A DNA stretch of 64,000 nt from Octopus vulgaris (taxonomy: Eukaryota), in the NCBI GenBank assembly GCA_951406725.2, contig OX597819.1:62992001-63056000 (forward strand). The letters run 5' to 3'. A program made the translations under genes and the position numbers. Below are positions 2,521-55,611 of the stretch, piece by piece (the stretch's first letter is position 1; each line of letters starts with the position of its first letter). Below the pieces are notes generated by a model. It did no database searches, was not told the DNA's origin, and saw only the letters and a list, made by a program, of their open reading frames with translations.

Positions 2521-2824
2521 GTGATCACATGACGAACCAGACCATCAGATGTTGTTACACATCGCTGGTCACAATGCGCTTCGCATTGTTTTAGCCTTCA
2601 AATGACGCCACCCCGCTGGCTAAGCGAGCAGGCCAACAAAAGAAAGAGTGAGAAAAAGTTGTGGTGAAAGAGTATAGCAGGGATCACCACTCCCTGCCGG
2701 AGTCTCGTGGAGCTTTTTAGGTGTTTTCGCTCTATAAACACTCACAACGCCCGGTCCGAGAATCGAAACCGCGATCCTCCACCGCGTGTCCGCTGCCCTA
2801 ACCACTGGGCCATTGCGCCTCCAC
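2521..2824 (-). mobile_element. tRNA-derived SINE (head type 1, tail type A)
   Basis: Minus strand starts GTGGAGGCGCAATGGCCCAGTGGTTAGGGCAGCGG...GGTTTCGATTC (pol III A/B boxes); the same head recurs at 34915-35200, 40285-40635, 43712-44017 and 62155-62460. Confidence 0.85.
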
Positions 2825-2829
2825 ATATA

Positions 2830-2863
<34 letters not shown>

Positions 2864-2908
2864 CATACATATATATATATATACATACATATATATATAT
2901 ATATATAT

Positions 2909-2984
2909 AGGTGGTGCTATTAAGTTAGACATGGCCTGGGCCAATAATGGCCGAAACCTATCAAAGTATCAAAGTATCAAAGTA
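2909..2984 (+). mobile_element. 76-bp 3'-terminal stub of the CR1-type LINE, inverted relative to 4041-4116
   Basis: Exact reverse complement of 4041-4116, including the (TATCAAAG)3 tail. Confidence 0.9.
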
Positions 2985-3121
2985 TATATATACATATATA
3001 TATATATACATACATACATATATATATATACATACATATATATATATATACATACATACATATATATATATATATACATACATACATATATATATACATA
3101 CATACATACATATATATATAT

Positions 3122-3152
<31 letters not shown>

Positions 3153-3267
3153 CATACATACATACATATATATACATACATACATATATATATATACATA
3201 CATACATATATATATATACATACATACATACATATATATATATATACATACATACATATATATATAT

Positions 3268-3298
<31 letters not shown>

Positions 3299-3299
3299 C

Positions 3300-3330
<31 letters not shown>

Positions 3331-3380
3331 CATACATATATATATATATACATACATATATATATATATACATACATATG

Positions 3381-3412
<32 letters not shown>

Positions 3413-3460
3413 CATACATACATATATATATAGACATACATATATATATATACATACATA

Positions 3461-3501
<41 letters not shown>

Positions 3502-4040
3502 ATACATACATATATATATATACATACATACATATATATATATACATACATATATATATATACATACATATATATATATATACATACATATATATATATA
3601 CATACATATATATATATACATACATATATATATATATATACATACATATATATATATACATACATATATATATATACATACATATATATATATACATACA
3701 TATATATATATACATACATATATATATATACATACATATATATATATATACATATATATATATACATACATATATATATATATATACATACATATATATA
3801 TACATACATACATACATATATATATATACATACATATATATATATACATACATATATATATATATATATATACATACATATATATATATATATACATACA
3901 TATATATATATATATACATACATATATATATATACACATACATATATATATATATACACATACATATATATATATATATACATACATATATATATATATA
4001 TACACATACATATATATATATATACATACATATATATATA
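2985..4040. repeat. Compound (TA)n/(CATA)n microsatellite, ~1.05 kb
   Basis: Seen directly; source of the spurious YI/HT ORFs. Confidence 0.98.
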
Positions 4041-6033
<1,993 letters not shown>

Positions 6034-6538
6034 ATTTATTATATAGAAGGAGCTTCTACAGGACTAGTACTGTTTCATTCAAGAGAAATCTTCAGGAAGC
6101 TATTTAACAAGAATTGTATTAGCATTTATACATTTAGGCAGGTTTAAAGGAGTGGTGGTGGGGGACTTTTTGGGGGTAGGCATAGCGCAAAATATCATAC
6201 TTGGGGGAGTGGTCAAGGAGTCAGTGGTAAGTTAGATGAAGGAATAGATAAATAAAAAAATAAAAAAATAAAAAATAAAAAAATAAAATAAAATAAAAAA
6301 ATAAAATAAAATAAAAAAATAAAATAAAAAAATAAAAAATAAAAAATATAAAAAATATATATAAAAAAATATATATATAAAATATATATATAAAAAAATA
6401 TATATAAAAATATATATAAAAAAATATATATATAAAAAAAGGGGGGATAGAGTTATAGGTAAATAAGGAGATTCTCACTTATACCTATACACACATGTAT
6501 ACGTATCTACACACACATACATACATACACATATATAT

Positions 6539-6587
<49 letters not shown>

Positions 6588-6939
6588 CCTACACATACAC
6601 ACATACATACATACAAATATACATATACATATATATATATACAATCCAATACAGGCCCATTCCCTAATTTTAATTTTATTATCTTCATTTATTACTTTTG
6701 TTATCTTTGATCGCTAGGGCTAAGAATCCTGGCAATGGCTGCATGTCCATTTGTCTGTCTACTAGAAGGCAAGTACTCATTCCCGCACGCACACTCATTA
6801 GCACGTACATTCACCCATTCGTACACTCATACACATACACGTACGCACGCGTTATATTCATACATACAAACATCTACATACGTTCACGTATATACACATA
6901 CGTACTCGTACCTACAGATTCGTGTCTACACTTTAGGAG
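6034..6939 (-). mobile_element. 3'-terminal ~0.9 kb of the Penelope-like element family at 47266-54935
   Basis: Near-identical to 47266-48130 and to the reverse complement of 54010-54865; the match ends at CTTTAGGAG (6939). Confidence 0.92.
6051..6101 (-). ncRNA. Type I hammerhead ribozyme (copy 1)
   Basis: Same sequence as 54798-54848, on the minus strand. Confidence 0.8.
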
Positions 6940-7352
6940 AGACATTCAGGCCAGTTTTGTTTGAGGATCTCTTTCTCAATTTGTTTCCAGTTTGCCTTAT
7001 GGTAGTTCAAGCTGGAAAGATTTTGAGGGTTTCTTGTAGGCTGCATGTCCGTGCTCTCTTTTGGCCCGTACATGGTCAGCTCTATCATGTTGTGATCCGA
7101 GAGTAGTGTCGGTGTCACTTTCACATTATGGATGAGATCCATGTCATTTGTGAAGCAGAGATCCAGTGTGTTACCTGCCCTGGTTGGTTGGAGTATTACC
7201 TGCTCCATGTACAGGGTGTTGATGAGGTTCAGGAGGGACCTCGCCTGTCCTCGTTCACATCTTGTCATTCCTGGGAGAGAAAGGCCCTCGGGCCATCTGA
7301 CATTCGGCAGATTGAAGTCTCCCATAAGAAGCACACCTATGTGTTGAACACC
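6936..7352 (-). pseudogene. LINE ORF2 apurinic-like (APE) endonuclease, C-terminal fragment, CR1-like
   Basis: Motifs LMGDFNLP, PTRAGNTLDLCFTN, LSDHNMI, then NYHKANW; truncated at both ends. Confidence 0.88.
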
Positions 7353-7415
7353 AGGCGATAAATTTATCAATGGTTGAACACCATGGTGTTCAACCATTGA
7401 TAAATTTATCGCCTG
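7352..7415. repeat. Perfect 64-bp palindrome with no spacer
   Basis: CAGGCGATAAATTTATCAATGGTTGAACACCA followed directly by its reverse complement; centre at 7383/7384. Confidence 0.95.
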
Positions 7416-8050
7416 TGAATATGAAATTCCTCTTCATTTCTCTGGAAATTTACATCTACACCATTGGAAATTGTGCATCTATACAAAGGATTAATTCACC
7501 CTCTCTGTAATGCTAATAAGCAGGAATTGAGACCCACCTCGTTGTGATTAACAATGGATAAATTTGTCGTCTGTGGGTATGTAATCCCTCATCATATCTC
7601 TGGAAATTCATATGTGCACTATGGATTAGGTCACCTTCTCTGTGATGCTGTTAAAACTTTTTTTAAAATTCTGTGATAAGACTGCACATCATCTTTAAAG
7701 AACTTTAATGAACTTTGGAAATCTGTTTATGTTACTTAATTATCTACTTCATGAGTATAGCCTCAACCAATAGGATGTCTAGAGAACTCACATGTATTTT
7801 AGCTGATGAGTACAGGACACGTTTATATGCTGTAATTTTTACAACTTTTAATAAAGCCTGTCCTTGTATGAAACGATTGTACTAAAAACCTATCCATTCT
7901 TGTTGCTTCTTTCTCGCTTATAATCACCCCACATTACTGTATTGTTAAAACAGTATAGTTTTTTTTTTGGTGCATCTAAGTTAGGTACCATATTCAAGTA
8001 AATTCATTTAAATTAACTTGAATCTTTATTGCTTTTTGTATATATATATA

Positions 8051-9561: not shown

Positions 9562-11219
9562 TATTTCTTTATTTCCCACTAGGGGCGACATAGAGTAGAC
9601 ACTACAAGACATTGGGGACATAGAACATTATAAAATAAAAGTATGTAAGATGAAATTTTGAAAATGATAATATGAAAGTGATGCTAACGGCCCCTTCCGC
9701 CAGCACCACTTATCTGTCCTTCATAAACCATCGTCATTTATCATCTCCAATCAAAAGCCCATATTTCTTTATCATTCTCTCAGCCTTCCTTTCATACTCT
9801 TTCACCGTCTCATCCGTAAATGCTACTTTAATCACTTTCACACCCTCATTTACACACTTCGCCATAATTCCTTCCATTTGCTCCCTAGGCACAACCGCAT
9901 AACTCCCATCTGCTCTCTCATACCATGAATAATTATCTATCATGTCTTTCGAGTCCTTCGTGTCCTCCCTTTTCACAAAACATAAAATATGGGGCTTGGG
10001 ATCTTGTTTACTTTGTGTGTCTGCATTATTTTATTTTTGGTTTTCTTTTAGGCGGGGAGTGGGTGGAATGACTGTTTGTAGAGGAAGGATGGGATTCAGA
10101 GGATGCGGGTGGTGTTGGGGTGGGTTGGGGTTCACCATAGTTCACTTTTCTTCTCCTTTTTCTCTTCTTTCTTAAATCTTCCCATCCAGTCTGAGCTTCC
10201 TCCTCCTCAGTTTCTTCCTCCTCAACTTGTTTTTGCTCCACCTCCTCATTTTCCTGGTTCACAGTTTCCTTTTGTGGGGGAGGGCAGTAAGCTCTTATGT
10301 GGCCCCTCAGGCCACACTTATAGCATCTTGGTGCTCTGCCCTCAACCCATACTCTCATTACAATATTTCCCATGTTTATGTTGTCTGTCATTCTTTCGTG
10401 TGTATCCTCCTCCGCTTGTACACTCATTTCAAGCGTCTTACCTCTCCAGCCTTCACCCTTTACGGTAGCCTGCAAGATGTCTACCTCCTCTTCGACTTCT
10501 TTTATTACCGCTGCAACGACCCATTCACCTTCTATGTGGGGGGTATCCCTTCCACTCTTATTCTTGTGGTTCTCTTATTCATGTAAGTTGGTAATAAGAT
10601 TACCTTTTCTGTTTTGATCGCCTTTGCTGCCATTTTTCTCGCCATATTCTTGTTTCCAAACTGCACCATTATCGTTCCGTACTCACTACCTCTTGCCACA
10701 AATACAATTTCTTCTTCCACTCTCCTTAACGCCTCCTCAATATCTTCCATTTTCACCATCTCGACTCTCTTGTTATCGTTTACGTATGTCCGGTATTTAA
10801 TCACTCTTTTTTCAAACCATTCACCACGTTTTTCTGGTGGTAACAGCTTTACCTCTCCTCCTTCCCTCGTCATATATGCCTGAAAGCCTGGCAACTTTTC
10901 CAGGTCTATCTCCTTTTCTTCCGTCTTCCTTGCTGCTCCAACATACGTCTTACCGACCTTTATATCCATCTTATTGACGGCGCCAATTAGCTCGTCCTCG
11001 GAGGTCGATGCCTCCGATAGACTCTCGAATAACCTTTCTTCTGCCATCTCTCCCATTAGGGAGGGGCGGTCCATCACTGTTTGTCTGTCTCAACGCAGAC
11101 AGACAACGGCCAACAGACCAAAAAACAGTATAACAAAAACCGTATAACAAAACTTTCAATAACAATTCAATAGCAAATTCAACAGCAAATAATTGGCAAC
11201 TTACAATAAAGTCCAAAAG
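9562..11219 (-). mobile_element. ORF1-only (half-LINE-like) non-autonomous retroelement B
   Basis: ~1.66 kb; flanked by identical 17-bp direct repeats AGCGGTACTCAGTAGAA (9545-9561, 11220-11236); no RT or EN coding; 3' tail GCCCCTAGTGGGAAATAAAGAAAT. Confidence 0.7.
9734..11077 (-). pseudogene. Frameshifted ORF1p/Gag-like nucleic-acid-binding protein with CCHC zinc knuckle
   Basis: Three consecutive track ORFs (10532-11077, 10026-10475, 9734-9976) join via frameshifts; CYKCGLRGHIRAYC = CX2CX4HX4C, followed by acidic, basic and Pro-rich tracts as in L1/Tx1-type ORF1p. Confidence 0.78.
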
Positions 11220-46597: not shown

Positions 46598-46899
46598 ATG
46601 AAAATGACGAAAGATATTTAAGCTTCTACAATCAGTGAATGAGAGAATAAATACAAAACTATAATTTACTAATTGCTGGAAGATTTAAAGTCCGAATAAT
46701 TAATACTAAAATACGTAAAATATAGATAATATAGTTAAATCAATTTATATTACTATGATTAATAGATATTCATTAAATTATGTATTTTAGTATAAATTAT
46801 TGTGACTTTAAATCTTCCAGCAATTAGTAATTTATAGTTTTGAATTTTGTTCTCTTATTCTCCGATCCTAGAAGCTTAACTATCTTTCGTCATTTTCAT
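46598..46899. mobile_element. ~300-bp AT-rich fold-back element
   Basis: ATGAAAATGACGAAAGATA...TTACTAATTGCTGGAAGATTTAAAGTC is mirrored by GACTTTAAATCTTCCAGCAATTAGTAA...TATCTTTCGTCATTTTCAT. Confidence 0.8.
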
Positions 46900-47282
46900 T
46901 AATATAATACATAATTCTATACCTTTATTCTATTTTTGTTATTTACGCAACGTCTTCACGAGTTAAATTTTTTATAAACGCCAAGGCCTAGGATTTACGT
47001 TTAAAATTCAGTTAAAATTTTTTCTTAGATAAGTAATGCGTTTCTTTTATCACAATATTATTGAATATTGAATTGAATTATGTTTGATTATTATTGTAAA
47101 AATATTAATTTCTCTATTGTTATTTGATAATTATAAGTTACGATACATATAGTTATTTACTTATTATTTTATTTTTTTTTTATTGTTATTACCTTGTGAA
47201 TTAACGTATTACATATAGCTTCATTTAATGTATATTATGTTTAATATATATATATATATATATATATTTATTATATAGAAGG

Positions 47283-47333
47283 AGCTTCTACAGGACTAGT
47301 ACTGTTTCATTCAAGAGAAATCTTCAGGAAGCT
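47283..47333 (-). ncRNA. Type I hammerhead ribozyme (copy 2)
   Basis: Reverse complement of 54798-54848. Confidence 0.8.
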
Positions 47334-47740
47334 ATTTAACAAGAATTGTATTAGCATTTATACATTTAGAGGAGTGGTGGTGGGGGACTTTTTGGGGGTA
47401 GGCATAGCGCAAAATATCATACTTGGGGGAGTGGTCAAGGTAATAAAAAAATAAAAAAATAAAAAAATAAAAAAAAAAAATAAAAAGATAAAATAAAAAA
47501 AAAGAATAAAAATAAAAAATATAAAAAATATAAAAAATATAAAAAATATAAAAAATATATATAAAAAAATATATATAAAAACATATATATAAAATATATA
47601 TATAAAAATATATATATAAAAAAAGGGGGGATAGAGTTATAGGTAAATAAGGAGATTCTCACTTATACCTATACACACATGTATACGTATCTACACACAC
47701 ATACGCACATACACATATATCTACACACACATATATATAT

Positions 47741-47777
<37 letters not shown>

Positions 47778-48230
47778 CCTACACATACACACATACATAC
47801 ATACAAACATACATATACATATACATATATATACAATCCAATACAGGCCCATTCCCTAATTTTAATTTTATTATCTTCATTTATTACTTTTGTTATCTTT
47901 GATCGCTAGGGCTAAGAATCCTGGCAATAGCTGCTTGTCCGTTTGTCTGTCTACTAGAAGGCAAGTGCTCATTCCCGCACGCACACTCATTAGCACGTAC
48001 ATTCACCCATTCGTACACTCATACACATACACGTACGCACGCGTTATATTCATACATACAAACATCTACATACGTTCACGTATATACACATACGTACTCG
48101 TACCTACAGATTCGTGTCTACACTTTAGGAGGCTAGTCTATACATATACACCAATAAATATACATATATATATATATATATATACCCGACATATACATAC
48201 ACACACACACATATATACTCCTACATACAG

Positions 48231-48275
<45 letters not shown>

Positions 48276-48485
48276 TATACATATATATACATATATACAC
48301 ATACATACACATACACACATACACATACACACACATACATACACATATATATACATACACAAACATATATACACACACATATATATATACATACACACAT
48401 ACACACGTACATACGTATACATACATACATACATCTATACATCCATACTTACATGCATTTATACGCATACACACACCCATCTATA

Positions 48486-48522
<37 letters not shown>

Positions 48523-48740
48523 TCACACATACATATACAAATCTACGCACACACATACATACATACACGTATACGCATACACGCACATACACATATACAT
48601 GCGTACCCATACACGTGCACACACGCACGCGCATCCATATAAATACACACACGCATATATATATATACACGTGTGCAAGCATACATACATACTCATACGC
48701 GCACACATACTTAATATATGCATACATACACACATGCACT

Positions 48741-48802
<62 letters not shown>

Positions 48803-48867
48803 CATATACATACATAGACATACATACCCATACATACACATACACATACGTACACACACATATACAC

Positions 48868-48900
<33 letters not shown>

Positions 48901-49438
48901 CACATATACGCATACATATATACACATATACATACATATACATACACACACACATACATATATACATATACACTGATACACATACCCATACATACACATG
49001 CATATACTTATATTACTACATACTCACATATATAGACATATATACATATACACACATACACATATATACATGTACATACACATACGCATGCATATATATA
49101 TATATATATATACATATATATACACATATATACATATATATATACATATACATATATACATACATACACACACACACATACATATACACATATACATGTA
49201 TACATACGCAAAAATGATACGCATATATACACATACACACACACAGACAGATGCATATACATACATATATATATATATAAACTACATATCTATATAAATA
49301 CAAACATAATACACATATACACACACATATATATACATTCATGCATATACATATACAAGTATACATACACAAACATACACACACACGCGCACACATACAT
49401 ATACACACACACATATACAAATACATACATACACACAT

Positions 49439-49485
<47 letters not shown>

Positions 49486-49867
49486 CATGTACACATATAC
49501 ATATGTATATATATATCAACAAGGGAGGGTAAAGTTAATTAGTTATTAATCAATTTCATCAAGTGTTCAGTATGTAAAGGGACCATTATTATTTTGAGTA
49601 AACAATGTTAGAGGGAAAAAAATTCTCTAAGTAGTGGAAGAGGCTAAAAAACTTTATTGGCTGCTATTTCTAGAAAGTTTAGTATGTGGCAAAGTAATTT
49701 ATTTTATTTTCCTAAGCCCTAATTATATAATATTTTATACATACATACACATACATAAGCACATACATTTACACATACATATGCATATACATATATACAC
49801 ACATACATACAAACACATATACACATATGCACACACACACACACACACACATACAAGCACATACATA

Positions 49868-49903
<36 letters not shown>

Positions 49904-50180
49904 CATATATATACACAATATATACATATATATATATACATATATACATGCAGATATATATACATATATATTTTTTTACATGCATACATACACACACACA
50001 CACATAATACATGCGTATATTCCTACTGTACCCATGCATTTCTATACATATATACATACATACATACGATACACATATACAAGCGTGCACATATAATATG
50101 TGGAAAGGTCTTAGGAGAAAAGGTAATCGGGGGTGCTAGGGGAACAGTGGGGTTGGGGGGGGGGTTGTAGGGGGTTGTCA

Positions 50181-50623
50181 TCAATCAGGTTGCCGGGTAG
50201 GTCTATAGTTCTTGTAGTTCGCATTCTTCTTATGCATACAGTTTGGGGAGTGTTCTGAAAATTTGTTAAGGAGAGGGCCTTTGGCGAACAAGATCTCTAG
50301 GCTCTCTGATAGCATAGGTCACAGCAGGTATGTCCTCCTGTGTACGAGCGCGCCTTCTGTAGTAGTTTCCACTTGGTCTTGAAGGGGATTGAGTTCCTTT
50401 TAAGGTACCAGATGTGGGCGGCGAGGGTAGTTTGGTTGGATTTATCCTGTCGCCGGAACGAGTGTGTATGTGCATACCAGCGGGTCTTAAAGCTGTTTGA
50501 CGTCATTCCAATGTAGGATTTACTTTTATCGTCAAGGCCTGATCTTACCTCGCATTTATATACTAGGTCCCTCTGTAGGCAGTTGTTGTTGAGGGGGCAG
50601 GTGGTTTTATCATGGCAGTTGCA
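50181..50623 (-). pseudogene. Inverted duplicate of the GIY-YIG endonuclease coding region
   Basis: Reverse complement of 51490-51933 with a 1-bp deletion after CCDLC. Confidence 0.9.
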
Positions 50624-51933
50624 CCATCACCGAGGCCGAGCAAGATGTGATCCTCCACGCACGTAAGACTTTTCTTTTCTATGACGGATCCCACTGGATC
50701 AACAAAAAATCTGTGACCCCCTTCGACGTCAGCATGGGTGCTAACGACTCTGCTGAAATAAGTGACCTAGTGGGCCTTTTCATCCTCCATAGGCTGAAAA
50801 CCCTATTCACAGGCCTCTCCGGTGGTCTTTACCGAGATGACGGCCTTTTCGCCCTCCACAATATAAACCCCAGGACCACGGATGGGTTCCGGAAAAATCT
50901 TCACACCTTCTTTAAAAACTTAGGCCTTAGGATTACCCTAGAATCCAACTTAACTAAGGCTAACTTCCTAGATGTCACCCTCGACTTAAAAACCTCACTT
51001 TATTACCCGTACCACAAACCTAATGAATCCCTTAGATATATAGATATCAATTCCAACCACCCCAGAAATATATTAGATAACCTAGTAAAAAGTGTCTCAA
51101 TTAGAATCTCTAGCCTGTCCGCCACGGAAGATATCTTTAAGGCCGCAGCCCCCTATTACAACGAGGCCCTGGCCCGCAGTGGTTTTAAAGATAAGATTAC
51201 CTACACCTAGTATAGCCCCACGCCAACCCAGGAAAAATAGACGAAGACACATTAGCTGGTATAACCCCCCTTCAACCGTGAGGTCGCTACACCTGTAGCT
51301 AAGATCTTTTTCACTCTCCTACAGAAACACTTCCCCACCCAACATAAGTACTACACTATCCTAAATAAGAACACTATTAGACTCTCCTACTCTACCACGC
51401 CCAACCTAGCCAGGAACTTAGCCAACAACAATGTGAAAAAACTTAACATATCTACTTTCTCCGGGGCCCATCCAACGTCCGATAGCAATTGCAACTGCCA
51501 TGATAAAACCACCTGCCCCCTCAACAACAACTGCCTACAGAGGGACCTAGTATATAAATGCGAGGTAAGATCAGGCCTTGACGATAAAAGTAAATCCTAC
51601 ATTGGAATGACGTCAAACAGCTTTAAGACCCGCTGGTATGCACATACACACTCGTTCCGGCGACAGGATAAATCCAACCAAACTACCCTCGCCGCCCACA
51701 TCTGGTACCTTAAAAGGAACTCAATCCCCTTCAAGACCAAGTGGAAACTACTACAGAAGGCGCGCTCGTACACAGGAGGACATACCTGCTGTGACCTATG
51801 CATATCAGAGAGCCTAGAGATCTTGTTCGCCAAAGGCCCTCTCCTTAACAAATTTTCAGAACACTCCCCAAACTGTATGCATAAGAAGAACGCGAACTAC
51901 AAGAACTATAGACCTACCCGGCAACCTGATTGA
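50624..51933 (+). pseudogene. PLE polyprotein, 5'-truncated: RT (C-terminal part) + linker + GIY-YIG endonuclease
   Basis: RT motifs FDVSMGANDSAEISDL, YRDDGL, NFLDVTL; WYNPP; Cys motif CNCHDKTTCPL...C; LVY...YIGMT...FKTRW..H, then CDLC..E...LLN...C.H; two compensating frame slips at ~51205 and ~51270. Confidence 0.92.
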
Positions 51934-52239
51934 TGACAACCCCCCCTACAACCCCCCCCAACCCCACTGTTCCCCTAGCACCCCCGATTACCTTTTCTCC
52001 TAAGACCTTCCACATATTATATGTGCACGCTTGTATATGTGTATCGTATGTATGTATGTATATATGTATAGAAATGCATGGGTACAGTAGGAATATACGC
52101 ATGTATTATGTGTGTGTGTGTGTATGTATGCATGTAAAAAAAAAAAAAAAAAAAAAAATAAAAAAAAAAAAAATATATATGTATATATATCTGCATGTAT
52201 ATATATATATATATATATGTGTATATATATGTGTGTATA

Positions 52240-52292
<53 letters not shown>

Positions 52293-52659
52293 GCTTGTAT
52301 GTGTGTGTGTGTGTGCATATGTGTATATGTGTTTGTATGTATATGTGTATATATGTATATGCATATGTATGTGTAAATGTATGTGCTTATGTATGTGTAT
52401 GTATGTATAAAATATTATATAATTAGGGCTTAGGAAAATAAAATAAATTACTTTGCCACATACTAAACTTTCTAGAAATAGCAGCCAATAAAGTTTCTTA
52501 GCCTCTTCCACTACTTAGAGAATTTTTTTCCCTCTAACATTGTTTACTCAAAATAATAATGGTCCCTTTACATACTGAACACTTGATGAAATTGATTAAT
52601 AACTAATTAACTTTACCCTCCCTTGTTGATATATATATACATATGTATATGTGTACATG

Positions 52660-52704
<45 letters not shown>

Positions 52705-53242
52705 ATGTGTGTATGTATGTATTTGTATATGTGTGTGTGTATATGTATGTGTGCGCGTGTGTGTGTATGTTTGTGTATGTATACTTGTATATGTATATGC
52801 ATGAATGTATATATATGTGTGTGTATATGTGTATTATGTATGTATTTATATAGATATGTAGTTTATATATATATATGTATGTATATGCATCTGTCTGTGT
52901 GTGTGTATGTGTATATATGCGTATCATTTTTGCGTATGTATACATGTATATGTGTATATGTATGTGTGTGTGTGTGTGTATGTATGTATATATGTATATG
53001 TATATATATGTATATATGTGTATATATATGTATATATATATATATATATATGCATGCGTATGTGTATGTACATGTATATATGTGTATGTGCGTATATGTA
53101 TATATGTCTATATATGTGAGTATGTAGTAATATAAGTATATGCATGTGTATGTATGGGTATGTGTATCAGTGTATATGTATATATGTATGTGTGTGTGTA
53201 TGTATATGTATGTATATGTGTATATATGTATGCGTATATGTG

Positions 53243-53273
<31 letters not shown>

Positions 53274-53344
53274 GTGTATATGTGTGTGTACGTATGTGTA
53301 TGTGTATGTATGGGTATGTATGTCTATGTATGTATATGTATGTG

Positions 53345-53382
<38 letters not shown>

Positions 53383-53845
53383 ATGTATATATATATGTAG
53401 TGCGTGTGTGTATGTATGCATATATTAAGTATGTGTGCGCGTATGAGTATGTATGTATGCTTGCACACGTGTATATATATATATGCGTGTGTGTGTATTT
53501 ATATGGATGCGCGTGCGTGTGTGCACGTGTATGGGTACGCATGTATATGTGTATGTGCGTGTATGCGTATACGTGTATGTATGTATGTGTGTGCGTAGAT
53601 TTGTATATGTATGTGTGAGTGTGTATATATATATATATATATATATACATATATATAGATGGGTGTGTGTATGCGTATAAATGCATGTAAGTATGGATGT
53701 ATAGATGTATGTATGTATGTATACGTATGTACGTGTGTATGTGTGTATGTATATATATATATGTGTGTGTATATATGTTTGTGTATGTATATATATGTGT
53801 ATGTATGTGTGTGTATGTGTATGTGTGTATGTGTATGTATGTGTA

Positions 53846-53903
<58 letters not shown>

Positions 53904-54362
53904 TATGTATCTGTATGTAGGAGTATATATGTGTGTGTGTGTATGTATATGCGGGTATATATATATATATATATATGTATATTTATTGGTGTATATGTAT
54001 AGACTAGCCTCCTAAAGTGTAGACACGAATCTGTAGGTACGAGTACGTATGTGTATATACGTGAACGTATGTAGATGTTTGTATGTATGAATATAACGCG
54101 TGCGTACGTGTATGTGTATGAGTGTACGAATGGGTGAATGTACGTGCTAATGAGTGTGCGTGCGGGAATGAGCACTTGCCTTCTAGTAGACAGACAAACG
54201 GACAAGCAGCTATTGCCAGGATTCTTAGCCCTAGCGATCAAAGATAACAAAAGTAATAAATGAAGATAATAAAATTAAAATTAGGGAATGGGCCTGTATT
54301 GGATTGTATATATATGTATATGTATATGTATGTTTGTATGTATGTATGTGTGTATGTGTAGG

Positions 54363-54419
<57 letters not shown>

Positions 54420-54797
54420 AGATATATGTGTATGTGCGTATGTGTGTGTAGATACGTATACATGTGTGTATAGGTATAAGTGAGAATCTCCTTATTTACC
54501 TATAACTCTATCCCCCCTTTTTTTATATATATATTTTTATATATATATTTTATATATATGTTTTTATATATATTTTTTTATATATATTTTTTATATTTTT
54601 TATATTTTTTATATTTTTTATATTTTTTATTTTTATTCTTTTATTTTATCTTTTTATTTTTTTATTTTTTATTTTTTTATTTTTTTATTACCTTGACCAC
54701 TCCCCCAAGTATGATATTTTGCGCTATGCCTACCCCCAAAAAGTCCCCCACCACCACTCCTCTAAATGTATAAATGCTAATACAATTCTTGTTAAAT

Positions 54798-54848
54798 AGC
54801 TTCCTGAAGATTTCTCTTGAATGAAACAGTACTAGTCCTGTAGAAGCT
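54798..54848 (+). ncRNA. Type I hammerhead ribozyme (copy 3, sense to the PLE ORF)
   Basis: Stem I AGCTTC/GAAGCT; core CTGAAGA (54804-54810); stem II TTC-TCTT-GAA; GAAA; stem III ACAG/CTGT with loop holding palindrome ACTAGT; GUA cleavage triplet ending at 54842. Confidence 0.82.
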
Positions 54849-54929
54849 CCTTCTATATAATAAATTAATTTTACTCTGCTATGTATTGAGTACCTTACTT
54901 ACTGTGGTTAACCCCGAATCAACCCGGGA

Positions 54930-54966
<37 letters not shown>

Positions 54967-55611
54967 TTAATTATTTTGTTTTAGTTGCTTGCATTTTAAT
55001 TTTACAGTAATGATATACTATAGTTTGCTATTTTTCTTCTACAAGCTTAAATATATTTTCATAGATAAAATAAATATTTATATCTATTTATTCTAGTTTT
55101 ATTTTACACCACGTTTTAAAGGAGATAAATTTATTATAAACAGTAAGTCCTACGTATTAAGTTTAAAGATTTTAGTTAACAGAATATATTTAATAAGATA
55201 TTTTGTGTTTTTGCTTTAAGATATATTGTTGGATTTTTGTTCGATTTTTTATTGAAAAACTACGTATTTTTTTATATATTTATACTTTCTTATTAGATAA
55301 TATACGTGCATTTATTTAATTATTTTATTGTTTTCATCTTGGACCTGATGAGTGACTATTTTTAAATTGAATTGATTTTACTGTTATCAGTTTGAAAATA
55401 TAAGTTATTATTTCGTACTTAATTTAGTTCTAGGTAAATGTTTTATCGTATTTTTAATTTTTTTCTGTATGGTATGATTTAATTATATCATTGTTGAATT
55501 GCTACATGGTGGTTCTTCTCTAATTTCTATATATTATATATTTTGAAATGTGATTTAGCATTACTAAATTGAATTATTCCCCGGTAAGTTTGGAATCATA
55601 TTCCCTAATAT

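What the first reader, a model, noticed from the sequence alone, without database searches (positions are those of the whole stretch)
47266..54935. 7.6-kb quasi-palindromic Penelope-like insertion: 3.36-kb inverted arms, each ending in an intact hammerhead ribozyme
Seen: the arms mirror each other through the endonuclease and the whole 3' region. The inversion junction is at TGCA (50620-50623 / 51490-51493). Both arms lack two short segments present in the 6034 copy (near 6138 and 6219-6250), so they derive from one template. Established: PLEs carry hammerheads in their terminal repeats and often show inverted 5'-truncated partners. Inference: a single insertion event with an unusually long inverted arm. 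Read-through would give a >3-kb dsRNA hairpin, a strong substrate for ADAR editing or small-RNA production.
Basis: partly seen in the sequence, partly recalled or inferred. Interest (0 to 1): 0.75.

Follow-up and report, generated by a model that had tools for sequence, protein, structure and literature searches.

The report
Two-armed Hydra-type Penelope retrotransposon insertion
This mirror-image stretch is one young insertion of a common jumping gene whose copies usually land as back-to-back pairs, a layout already known for this class; the near-strict rule that only one of the two ends carries a 70-base tail suggests both arms are likely copied from one RNA at the same time.

Summary
Real, and ordinary for its family. 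Arms 47266-50623(-) and 51490-54865(+) differ at 2 of 1,373 non-repeat bases; an 866-bp RT piece lies between them and only the right end carries a 70-bp tail. Two paralogous empty sites join the flanks by a short (TA)n, so the 7.67 kb is one insertion. It is a new family of the Hydra clade of Penelope-like elements (motifs and hammerhead type met; no tree made). 81 of 102 family insertions examined are head-to-head pairs; these arms are long but not unique. Inverted arms with a hammerhead each, a one-sided tail and siRNAs from such arms are published. What the family adds is numbers: exactly one tailed end in 50 of 51 pairs not chosen for it, tail on the longer or the shorter arm alike, private alleles shared by both arms, too many near-perfect palindromes. 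This fits priming of both target ends on one RNA at the two known start sites (inferred). The scan noted this model before on other DNA. Cleavage, read-through, dsRNA and editing are untested; a family-wide frame break proved a likely assembly error.

The parts
47244..47265 (.). left half of the (TA)n target, inside an older dispersed repeat
   Evidence: sequence; empty-site paralogues on C8 and C11
47266..50623 (-). inverted, 5'-truncated arm (endonuclease + 3' region), ending at the 'short' family end without tail
47283..47333 (-). hammerhead motif of the left arm, identical to the right one; predicted cut at 47289
50622..50623 (.). head-to-head junction, 2-base microhomology (CA)
50624..51489 (+). 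unpaired spacer: 3' part of the reverse transcriptase and linker; private 1-base insertion near 51207; C-run near 51264 probably under-called in the assembly
51490..51933 (+). CxCx5C linker and GIY-YIG-type endonuclease to the stop codon
   Evidence: translation; compared by eye with Hydra-1_Obim in the supplement of PMC8557442; no Pfam match
51934..54865 (+). 2.9-kb 3' region of the forward arm, mostly TA/TG microsatellite with short unique blocks
54798..54848 (+). hammerhead motif: stem I 6 bp, core CUGAAGA, U.U then 3-bp stem II, GAAA, stem III 4 bp with palindromic loop, GUA cut site after 54842
   Evidence: same layout as Hydra-clade motifs in File S2 of PMC8557442
54866..54935 (+). 70-bp tail, present at this end only; in tandem copies it runs on into the next unit's ORF
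54936..54962 (.). right half of the (TA)n target
6034..6939 (-). separate 3' fragment of the other subfamily, short end, also beside (TA)n

Best explanation
The 7.67 kb is one recent insertion of a Hydra-type Penelope-like retrotransposon into a (TA)n run, made of two 5'-truncated copies joined head to head, and it likely arose when both ends of the cut target primed reverse transcription on the same RNA, one at the far start site (giving the 70-base tail) and one at the near start site (no tail). Shown: one insertion, family identity by motifs, the layout is the family norm, one tailed and one untailed end, both arms from one source. From the literature on another PLE (green anole PAc): the protein cuts and extends both strands, starts at two adjacent internal sites whose interval is the tail, is modelled as a dimer, and does not need ribozyme cleavage. 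Inferred: the two enzymes run along one uncleaved RNA, the rear one displacing the first cDNA; each stops early, sometimes both at the same point; the two cDNA ends are joined bluntly or by 0-6 bases of homology and filled in by host repair. The hammerheads are passengers of the 3' end: both arms span the cut site, and the ends lie 23 and 93 bases beyond it.
For: Empty sites: two paralogues of the host repeat show left flank-(TA)n-right flank. Layout: 27 of 37 ORF-chosen loci, 31 of 36 tail-chosen loci, 23 of 29 loci chosen on the 3' block only are inverted pairs. One-tail rule: 27 of 28 and 23 of 23 pairs not chosen for a tail (one short/short, no tail/tail); 31 of 31 partners of tail-chosen ends are short. 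Tail on the longer arm 16, shorter 14, equal 6 of 36 simple pairs. One source: 77 pairs differ at 50 of 42,386 bases; 16 of 77 share an allele seen at no other sampled locus, against 19 of 16,775 cross-locus pairs; subfamily state agrees at both outer ends wherever both were scored. Near-symmetric junctions: 6 of 36, 0.77 expected by shuffling, p 2e-5; 5 clear further cases among 37 later pairs. Arm-private changes lean the same way on the sense strand in both kinds of arm (all 18:7, shorter arm 9:3, untailed arm 7:1), as expected if both arms are copied from sense RNA. PAc biochemistry: PMC11167929, parts 1-2 of 4 read.
Against: No biochemistry on this family. Shared alleles show one source locus, not one molecule. 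Eight polymorphic sites differ between arms of one insertion (L022 x2, L024 x2, L027, L034, L118, window 51891); L024's two sites look like two subfamilies. L028 has two untailed ends. 21 of 102 loci have no partner arm (one search shows (TA)n or other DNA at 13 of these 5' ends, one beside an N gap). The polarity classes were chosen after seeing the data, counts are small (p 0.04 overall, not significant per class) and the assembly has homopolymer errors. Near-symmetric junctions also fit fold-back. Samples are top-identity hits, so old or edited copies are missed.
Confidence: 0.62

Rival explanations
1. Two RNAs from one source locus, one per protomer of an asymmetric dimer, each priming one target end at a different start site.
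For: Explains shared alleles and either arm being longer; fits the arm-discordant polymorphic sites such as L024 and the mixed-subfamily tandem L031/L032; PAc is modelled as a dimer.
Against: Needs a built-in asymmetry on a palindromic (TA)n target, and PAc showed no start-site difference between strands; does not explain the excess of near-symmetric junctions; both ends almost always come from the same subfamily although two large subfamilies are young.
Confidence: 0.2
2. Fold-back or self-priming: one cDNA (or an antisense RNA, as proposed in PMC3846280) folds on itself and is copied, and endonuclease cutting near the tail trims one end.
For: Near-perfect palindromes, some centred on a self-complementary word (L055); shared alleles; the tail has been ascribed to endonuclease resolution (PMC8557442, passages); self-priming was proposed from such palindromes (PMC3846280, passages).
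Against: A copy cannot be longer than, or carry a tail missing from, its template: the tail is on the shorter arm in 14 of 36 pairs, unless both ends are first tailed and one is cut at random. The copied arm should show reversed error polarity; the shorter arms do not (9:3, weak).
Confidence: 0.14
3. Assembly or sequencing fold-back chimera, or two independent insertions side by side.
For: The assembly has systematic homopolymer errors; no contig listed or 53 bridges 50623/50624.
Against: Flanks differ and rejoin in empty-site paralogues; asymmetric ends and an 866-bp spacer; allele 51889 occurs only in the two arms genome-wide; 80 other loci have the layout with their own junctions.
Confidence: 0.02
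4. A functional host hairpin RNA (ADAR substrate or small-RNA source) kept at this locus.
For: A read-through transcript would pair over 3.3 kb; Penelope inverted copies gave siRNAs in Drosophila.
Against: No host exon seen in the window; a promoter in the terminal repeats, if this family has one as proposed for PAc, would point outward; no A>G excess in the arms or the family sample; about four in five sampled insertions have the same fold, so nothing singles this one out.
Confidence: 0.03

Closest known systems
Hydra-clade PLEs, notably Penelope-13_HM and Hydra-1_Obim (Craig et al. 2021, PMC8557442; section 11, passages and supplement parts seen)
   Same: C-terminal endonuclease, DKT, CxCx5C, CxxC and CxH motifs, (TA)n target, hammerhead with U before and after stem II; Penelope-13_HM is listed with a 5'-truncated inverted copy and a hammerhead on each strand.
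   Different: Other family than Hydra-1_Obim (different hammerhead and protein sequence, by eye); unit about 5.2 kb against generally under 3 kb, because of a 2.9-kb microsatellite 3' region; tail 70 bp against the usual 30-40.
Inverted pLTR plus one-sided tail of EN+ PLEs (Pen2a_Av, PMC3846280 passages; Fig. 2 legend of PMC8557442)
   Same: Head-to-head 5'-truncated partner, tail on one of the two ends, short junction homology or palindrome.
   Different: Published as 'optional' or 'often at one end'; here near-absolute in 51 pairs; no target-site duplication can be read in (TA)n.
PAc / Poseidon of the green anole (Frangieh et al. 2024, PMC11167929, parts 1-2 of 4)
   Same: AT-rich target, two internal start sites whose interval is the tail, hammerhead just upstream, cleavage not needed.
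   Different: Other clade; the parts read do not link the two start sites to the two arms of one insertion.
L1 twin priming (recalled; PMC2837659 seen only as a search listing)
   Same: Both target ends prime on one RNA and give an inversion.
   Different: L1 arms cover different parts of the RNA; here both arms cover the same 3' part, which needs displacement of the first cDNA or a second RNA.

Membership tests
Hydra-clade PLE | single ORF with RT and C-terminal GIY-YIG endonuclease | tested here: met
   RT 506 aa and endonuclease part 220 aa in L027; the break between them is absent from read contigs that bridge it and from L024; colinear by eye with Hydra-1_Obim. Pfam and PDB give no match.
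Hydra-clade PLE | RWK and DKT motifs, GxKF/Y not conserved | tested here: met
   RWR (conservative change), DKT, GFKS (against section 11)
Hydra-clade PLE | CxCx5C linker; CxxC and CxH near the C-terminus; no CCHH | tested here: met
   CNCHDKTTC, CDLC, CMH; one cysteine only within the GIY-YIG core (by eye)
Hydra-clade PLE | insertion into (TA)n | tested here: met
   empty sites; outer ends listed abut (TA)n almost without exception
Hydra-clade PLE | hammerhead near the 3' end | tested here: met
   motif layout equals File S2 entries; 64 of 68 scored occurrences identical, overlapping fetches counted twice
Hydra-clade PLE | generally under 3 kb (typical, not strict) | tested here: not met
   unit 5,189 bp in L021; tandem spacing 5,193-5,211; the coding part is of normal size
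Hydra-clade PLE | placement in the RT tree | not tested
   reference proteins were seen only as paper text; no tree was built
active hammerhead ribozyme | self-cleavage | not testable with these tools
   core complete; active fold -7.3 against -8.5 kcal/mol for an inactive one, ensemble share 0.024; metazoan PLE motifs cut poorly alone (PMC4209133 passages)

The most novel reading that the evidence does not exclude
Penelope-like elements normally insert by double priming on a single RNA: both ends of the target break are extended from the two start sites at once, so the head-to-head pair with one tail is the primary product and single copies are the cases where one arm failed. This young family (one tail in 50 of 51 pairs, shared private alleles, arms that stop at the same base) would be a direct genomic record and a test system for the open question of how PLE inverted ends form, and it seeds hundreds of kilobase hairpins made of microsatellite.
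Probability: 0.55. Interest if true: 0.6.

Novelty: new member of a known kind. Interest (0 to 1): 0.3.

Why it matters
The locus itself is ordinary. The family is useful: how PLEs form tandem and inverted ends is named as open in PMC8557442, and a young family with hundreds of near-identical ends (938 and 287 first-look candidates for the two subfamilies, 40 scored each) turns a qualitative remark into counts that separate one-RNA double priming from fold-back and from two free RNAs. It also spreads about 3 kb of microsatellite per arm and builds long potential hairpins at most insertions. In 4 searches aimed at mechanism and the passages read I did not find the one-RNA model or these counts in print; subscription papers and the older Penelope papers were not searchable.

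Tried and rejected
Family-wide frame break between RT and endonuclease (47 of 49 ORF copies) looked like programmed frameshifting; contigs from all four runs laid show one more C there, so it is most likely a homopolymer under-call of the assembly. Junction in public reads: no listed contig bridges 50623/50624 (tables cut, contigs drop rare forms), no evidence either way; the 'joint' 50623-51480 is the normal element read on. Expression: no RNA holder listed. Rfam: nothing at gathering score and no hammerhead to E 10. Pfam and PDB: nothing useful. ADAR footprint: no derived A>G in the unique parts of the two arms and no A>G excess among singletons (14 A>G against 34 T>C), but the sample excludes diverged copies. 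Same hairpin after both ends (lead from note e1-8668527): only weak, unlike hairpins of about -5 kcal/mol follow the two ends; inconclusive. Self-alignment as a measure of spacer length gave false zeros at TA runs; junction symmetry was taken from element coordinates and read by eye instead. PMC12910113, PMC13282606 and bioRxiv 10.64898/2026.07.22.740005 (passages) hold nothing on this layout; bioRxiv supplements were not open.

Full report
Observation. The arms are there: 47266-50623 on the minus strand matches 51490-54865 at 96.9%. A global alignment gives 20 substitutions and 23 indels, almost all in TA/TG runs or homopolymers; in 1,373 bases of non-repeat blocks the arms differ at two sites, 51891 and 52497, while the nearest other long copies differ from them at 4-7. 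Between the arms lie 866 bases of reverse transcriptase. The junction shares 2 bases with the forward copy. The right end continues for 70 bases (54866-54935) that the left end lacks; both ends abut (TA)n.

One insertion, not a chimera. The flanks belong to an older dispersed repeat. Two paralogues, on C8 and C11, show the left flank joined to the right flank by a short (TA)n only, so the whole 7,670 bases entered one site. Both arms share three alleles absent from the other sampled arms. Exact genome searches found allele 51889 only in the two arms, allele 54173 also in both arms of one other inverted insertion and allele 52010 at two more loci. Public contigs did not show the junction either way.

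What the element is. A young family: 511 first-look candidates for the coding part, 40 scored, nearly all 99% identical; unit about 5.2 kb. The protein of a natural long copy has RWR, DKT, CxCx5C, CxxC and CxH and lacks CCHH, the marks of the Hydra clade in PMC8557442 (section 11), and lines up by eye with Hydra-1_Obim in its supplement while being another family. The hammerhead has the clade's layout. That supplement already lists Penelope-13_HM with a 5'-truncated inverted copy and a hammerhead on each strand. No tree was made. The host was not established here; earlier notes of the scan call it an octopus. A frame break in 47 of 49 copies is missing from read contigs that bridge it and is taken as an assembly error.

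The layout is the family norm. Three samples were taken, each from the top hits of a search. ORF-chosen: 39 stretches, 36 distinct insertions plus the window, 27 of 37 inverted. Tail-chosen: 36 loci, 31 inverted (one of the five singles borders an N gap). Chosen on the 3' block alone, other subfamily: 29 loci, 23 inverted (pairs have two chances to be picked). Three allele-chosen loci (L163-L165) are left out of these counts. Arms of 3.3 kb or more occur in 7 of 26 other ORF-chosen pairs and 3 of 54 of the rest, so this locus is long but within the range.

The rule at the ends. Outer ends come in two kinds, short (equal to 54865) and tailed (equal to 54935). Among pairs not chosen for a tail, 27 of 28 (one nested mini-insertion included; L028 short/short) and 23 of 23 have exactly one of each; all 31 partners of tail-chosen ends are short (four ends were classed from alignment ends because the anchor missed). 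Free choice would give half. In 36 simple pairs the tail is on the longer arm 16 times, the shorter 14, and the arms are equal within 20 bases 6 times, against 0.77 by shuffling; five more clear near-perfect palindromes turned up among the 37 pairs fetched later. Across 77 pairs, 50 of 42,386 bases differ and 16 pairs share a locus-private allele, against 19 of 16,775 cross-locus pairs. Against a clean picture: eight polymorphic sites differ between partner arms, and the test on error polarity is weak (18:7 overall, same direction in every class, classes chosen after the fact).

Mechanism. For the anole element PAc, the protein cuts and extends both strands of AT-rich DNA, starts at two internal sites whose interval is the tail, is modelled as a dimer and needs no ribozyme cleavage (PMC11167929). 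Put together with the counts, the simplest reading is that both target ends prime on one RNA, one at each start site; the rear enzyme displaces the first cDNA; the cDNA ends are then joined. This gives one tail, shared alleles, either arm longer, and arms that stop together when the RNA ends or one enzyme catches the other. It is inference (0.62). Two RNAs on an asymmetric dimer (0.2) and fold-back with trimming (0.14; self-priming was proposed in PMC3846280) remain. I had this reading before looking at the scan's notes (note); searches then showed it had been reached on other DNA several times, which is not independent support.

Hammerheads and hairpin RNA. The motif is complete and nearly invariant but its active fold is not the most stable, Rfam does not see it, and such motifs cut poorly alone. 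Both arms span the cut site, so their template was uncut. A read-through RNA would form a 3.3-kb hairpin, and siRNAs from inverted Penelope copies are published, but no transcript, host exon or editing mark was found for this locus.

Verdict. Real; a new family of a known clade in its known insertion form; interest 0.3. The value lies in the family-level counts that make the origin of PLE inverted ends testable.

Noticed in passing
window 51262-51270 and 46 other copies: A C-run one base short breaks the RT-endonuclease frame in 47 of 49 assembled copies; read contigs carry the extra base, so the assembly under-calls this homopolymer family-wide and intact copies would be missed by annotation.
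   Followed up: yes
window 52100-54455: The microsatellite 3' region is strongly one-sided on the sense strand (TG 331, CA 22; G 393, C 60), as repeated A>G change of (TA)n RNA hairpins would leave; but unrelated arrays in the window (2822-4043) are as skewed, so slippage of one variant unit is just as possible.
   Followed up: partly
L031/L032 (C8:3.33 Mb): Tandem whose middle unit is of the deletion subfamily while both outer ends are of the other subfamily: a template switch between RNAs or insertion into a sister copy.
   Followed up: no
L047 / L076, element position 54472-54478: Both arms share two neighbouring A>G changes in what reads by eye as a hairpin of the 3' region; possibly an edited template.
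   Followed up: no
L036:2765-2950; L027:9779-9922; L057:8712-8896; L127 near 9842: Small second insertions of the same family in the (TA)n runs inside or beside older copies; the element carries its own target sequence.
   Followed up: no
window 46700-47243 and 54965-55600: The target lies in an older AT-rich dispersed repeat (404 and 1,936 first-look candidates, 70-90% identity) with a short inverted repeat near 46700-46790; a CTGATGAG word at about 55346 may be a hammerhead remnant.
   Followed up: partly
window 4133-5383 (-), 6933-7433 (-), 10026-11089 (-): Fragments that read like LINE reverse transcriptase, AP endonuclease and a zinc-knuckle ORF1 (labels from recall of the motifs).
   Followed up: no
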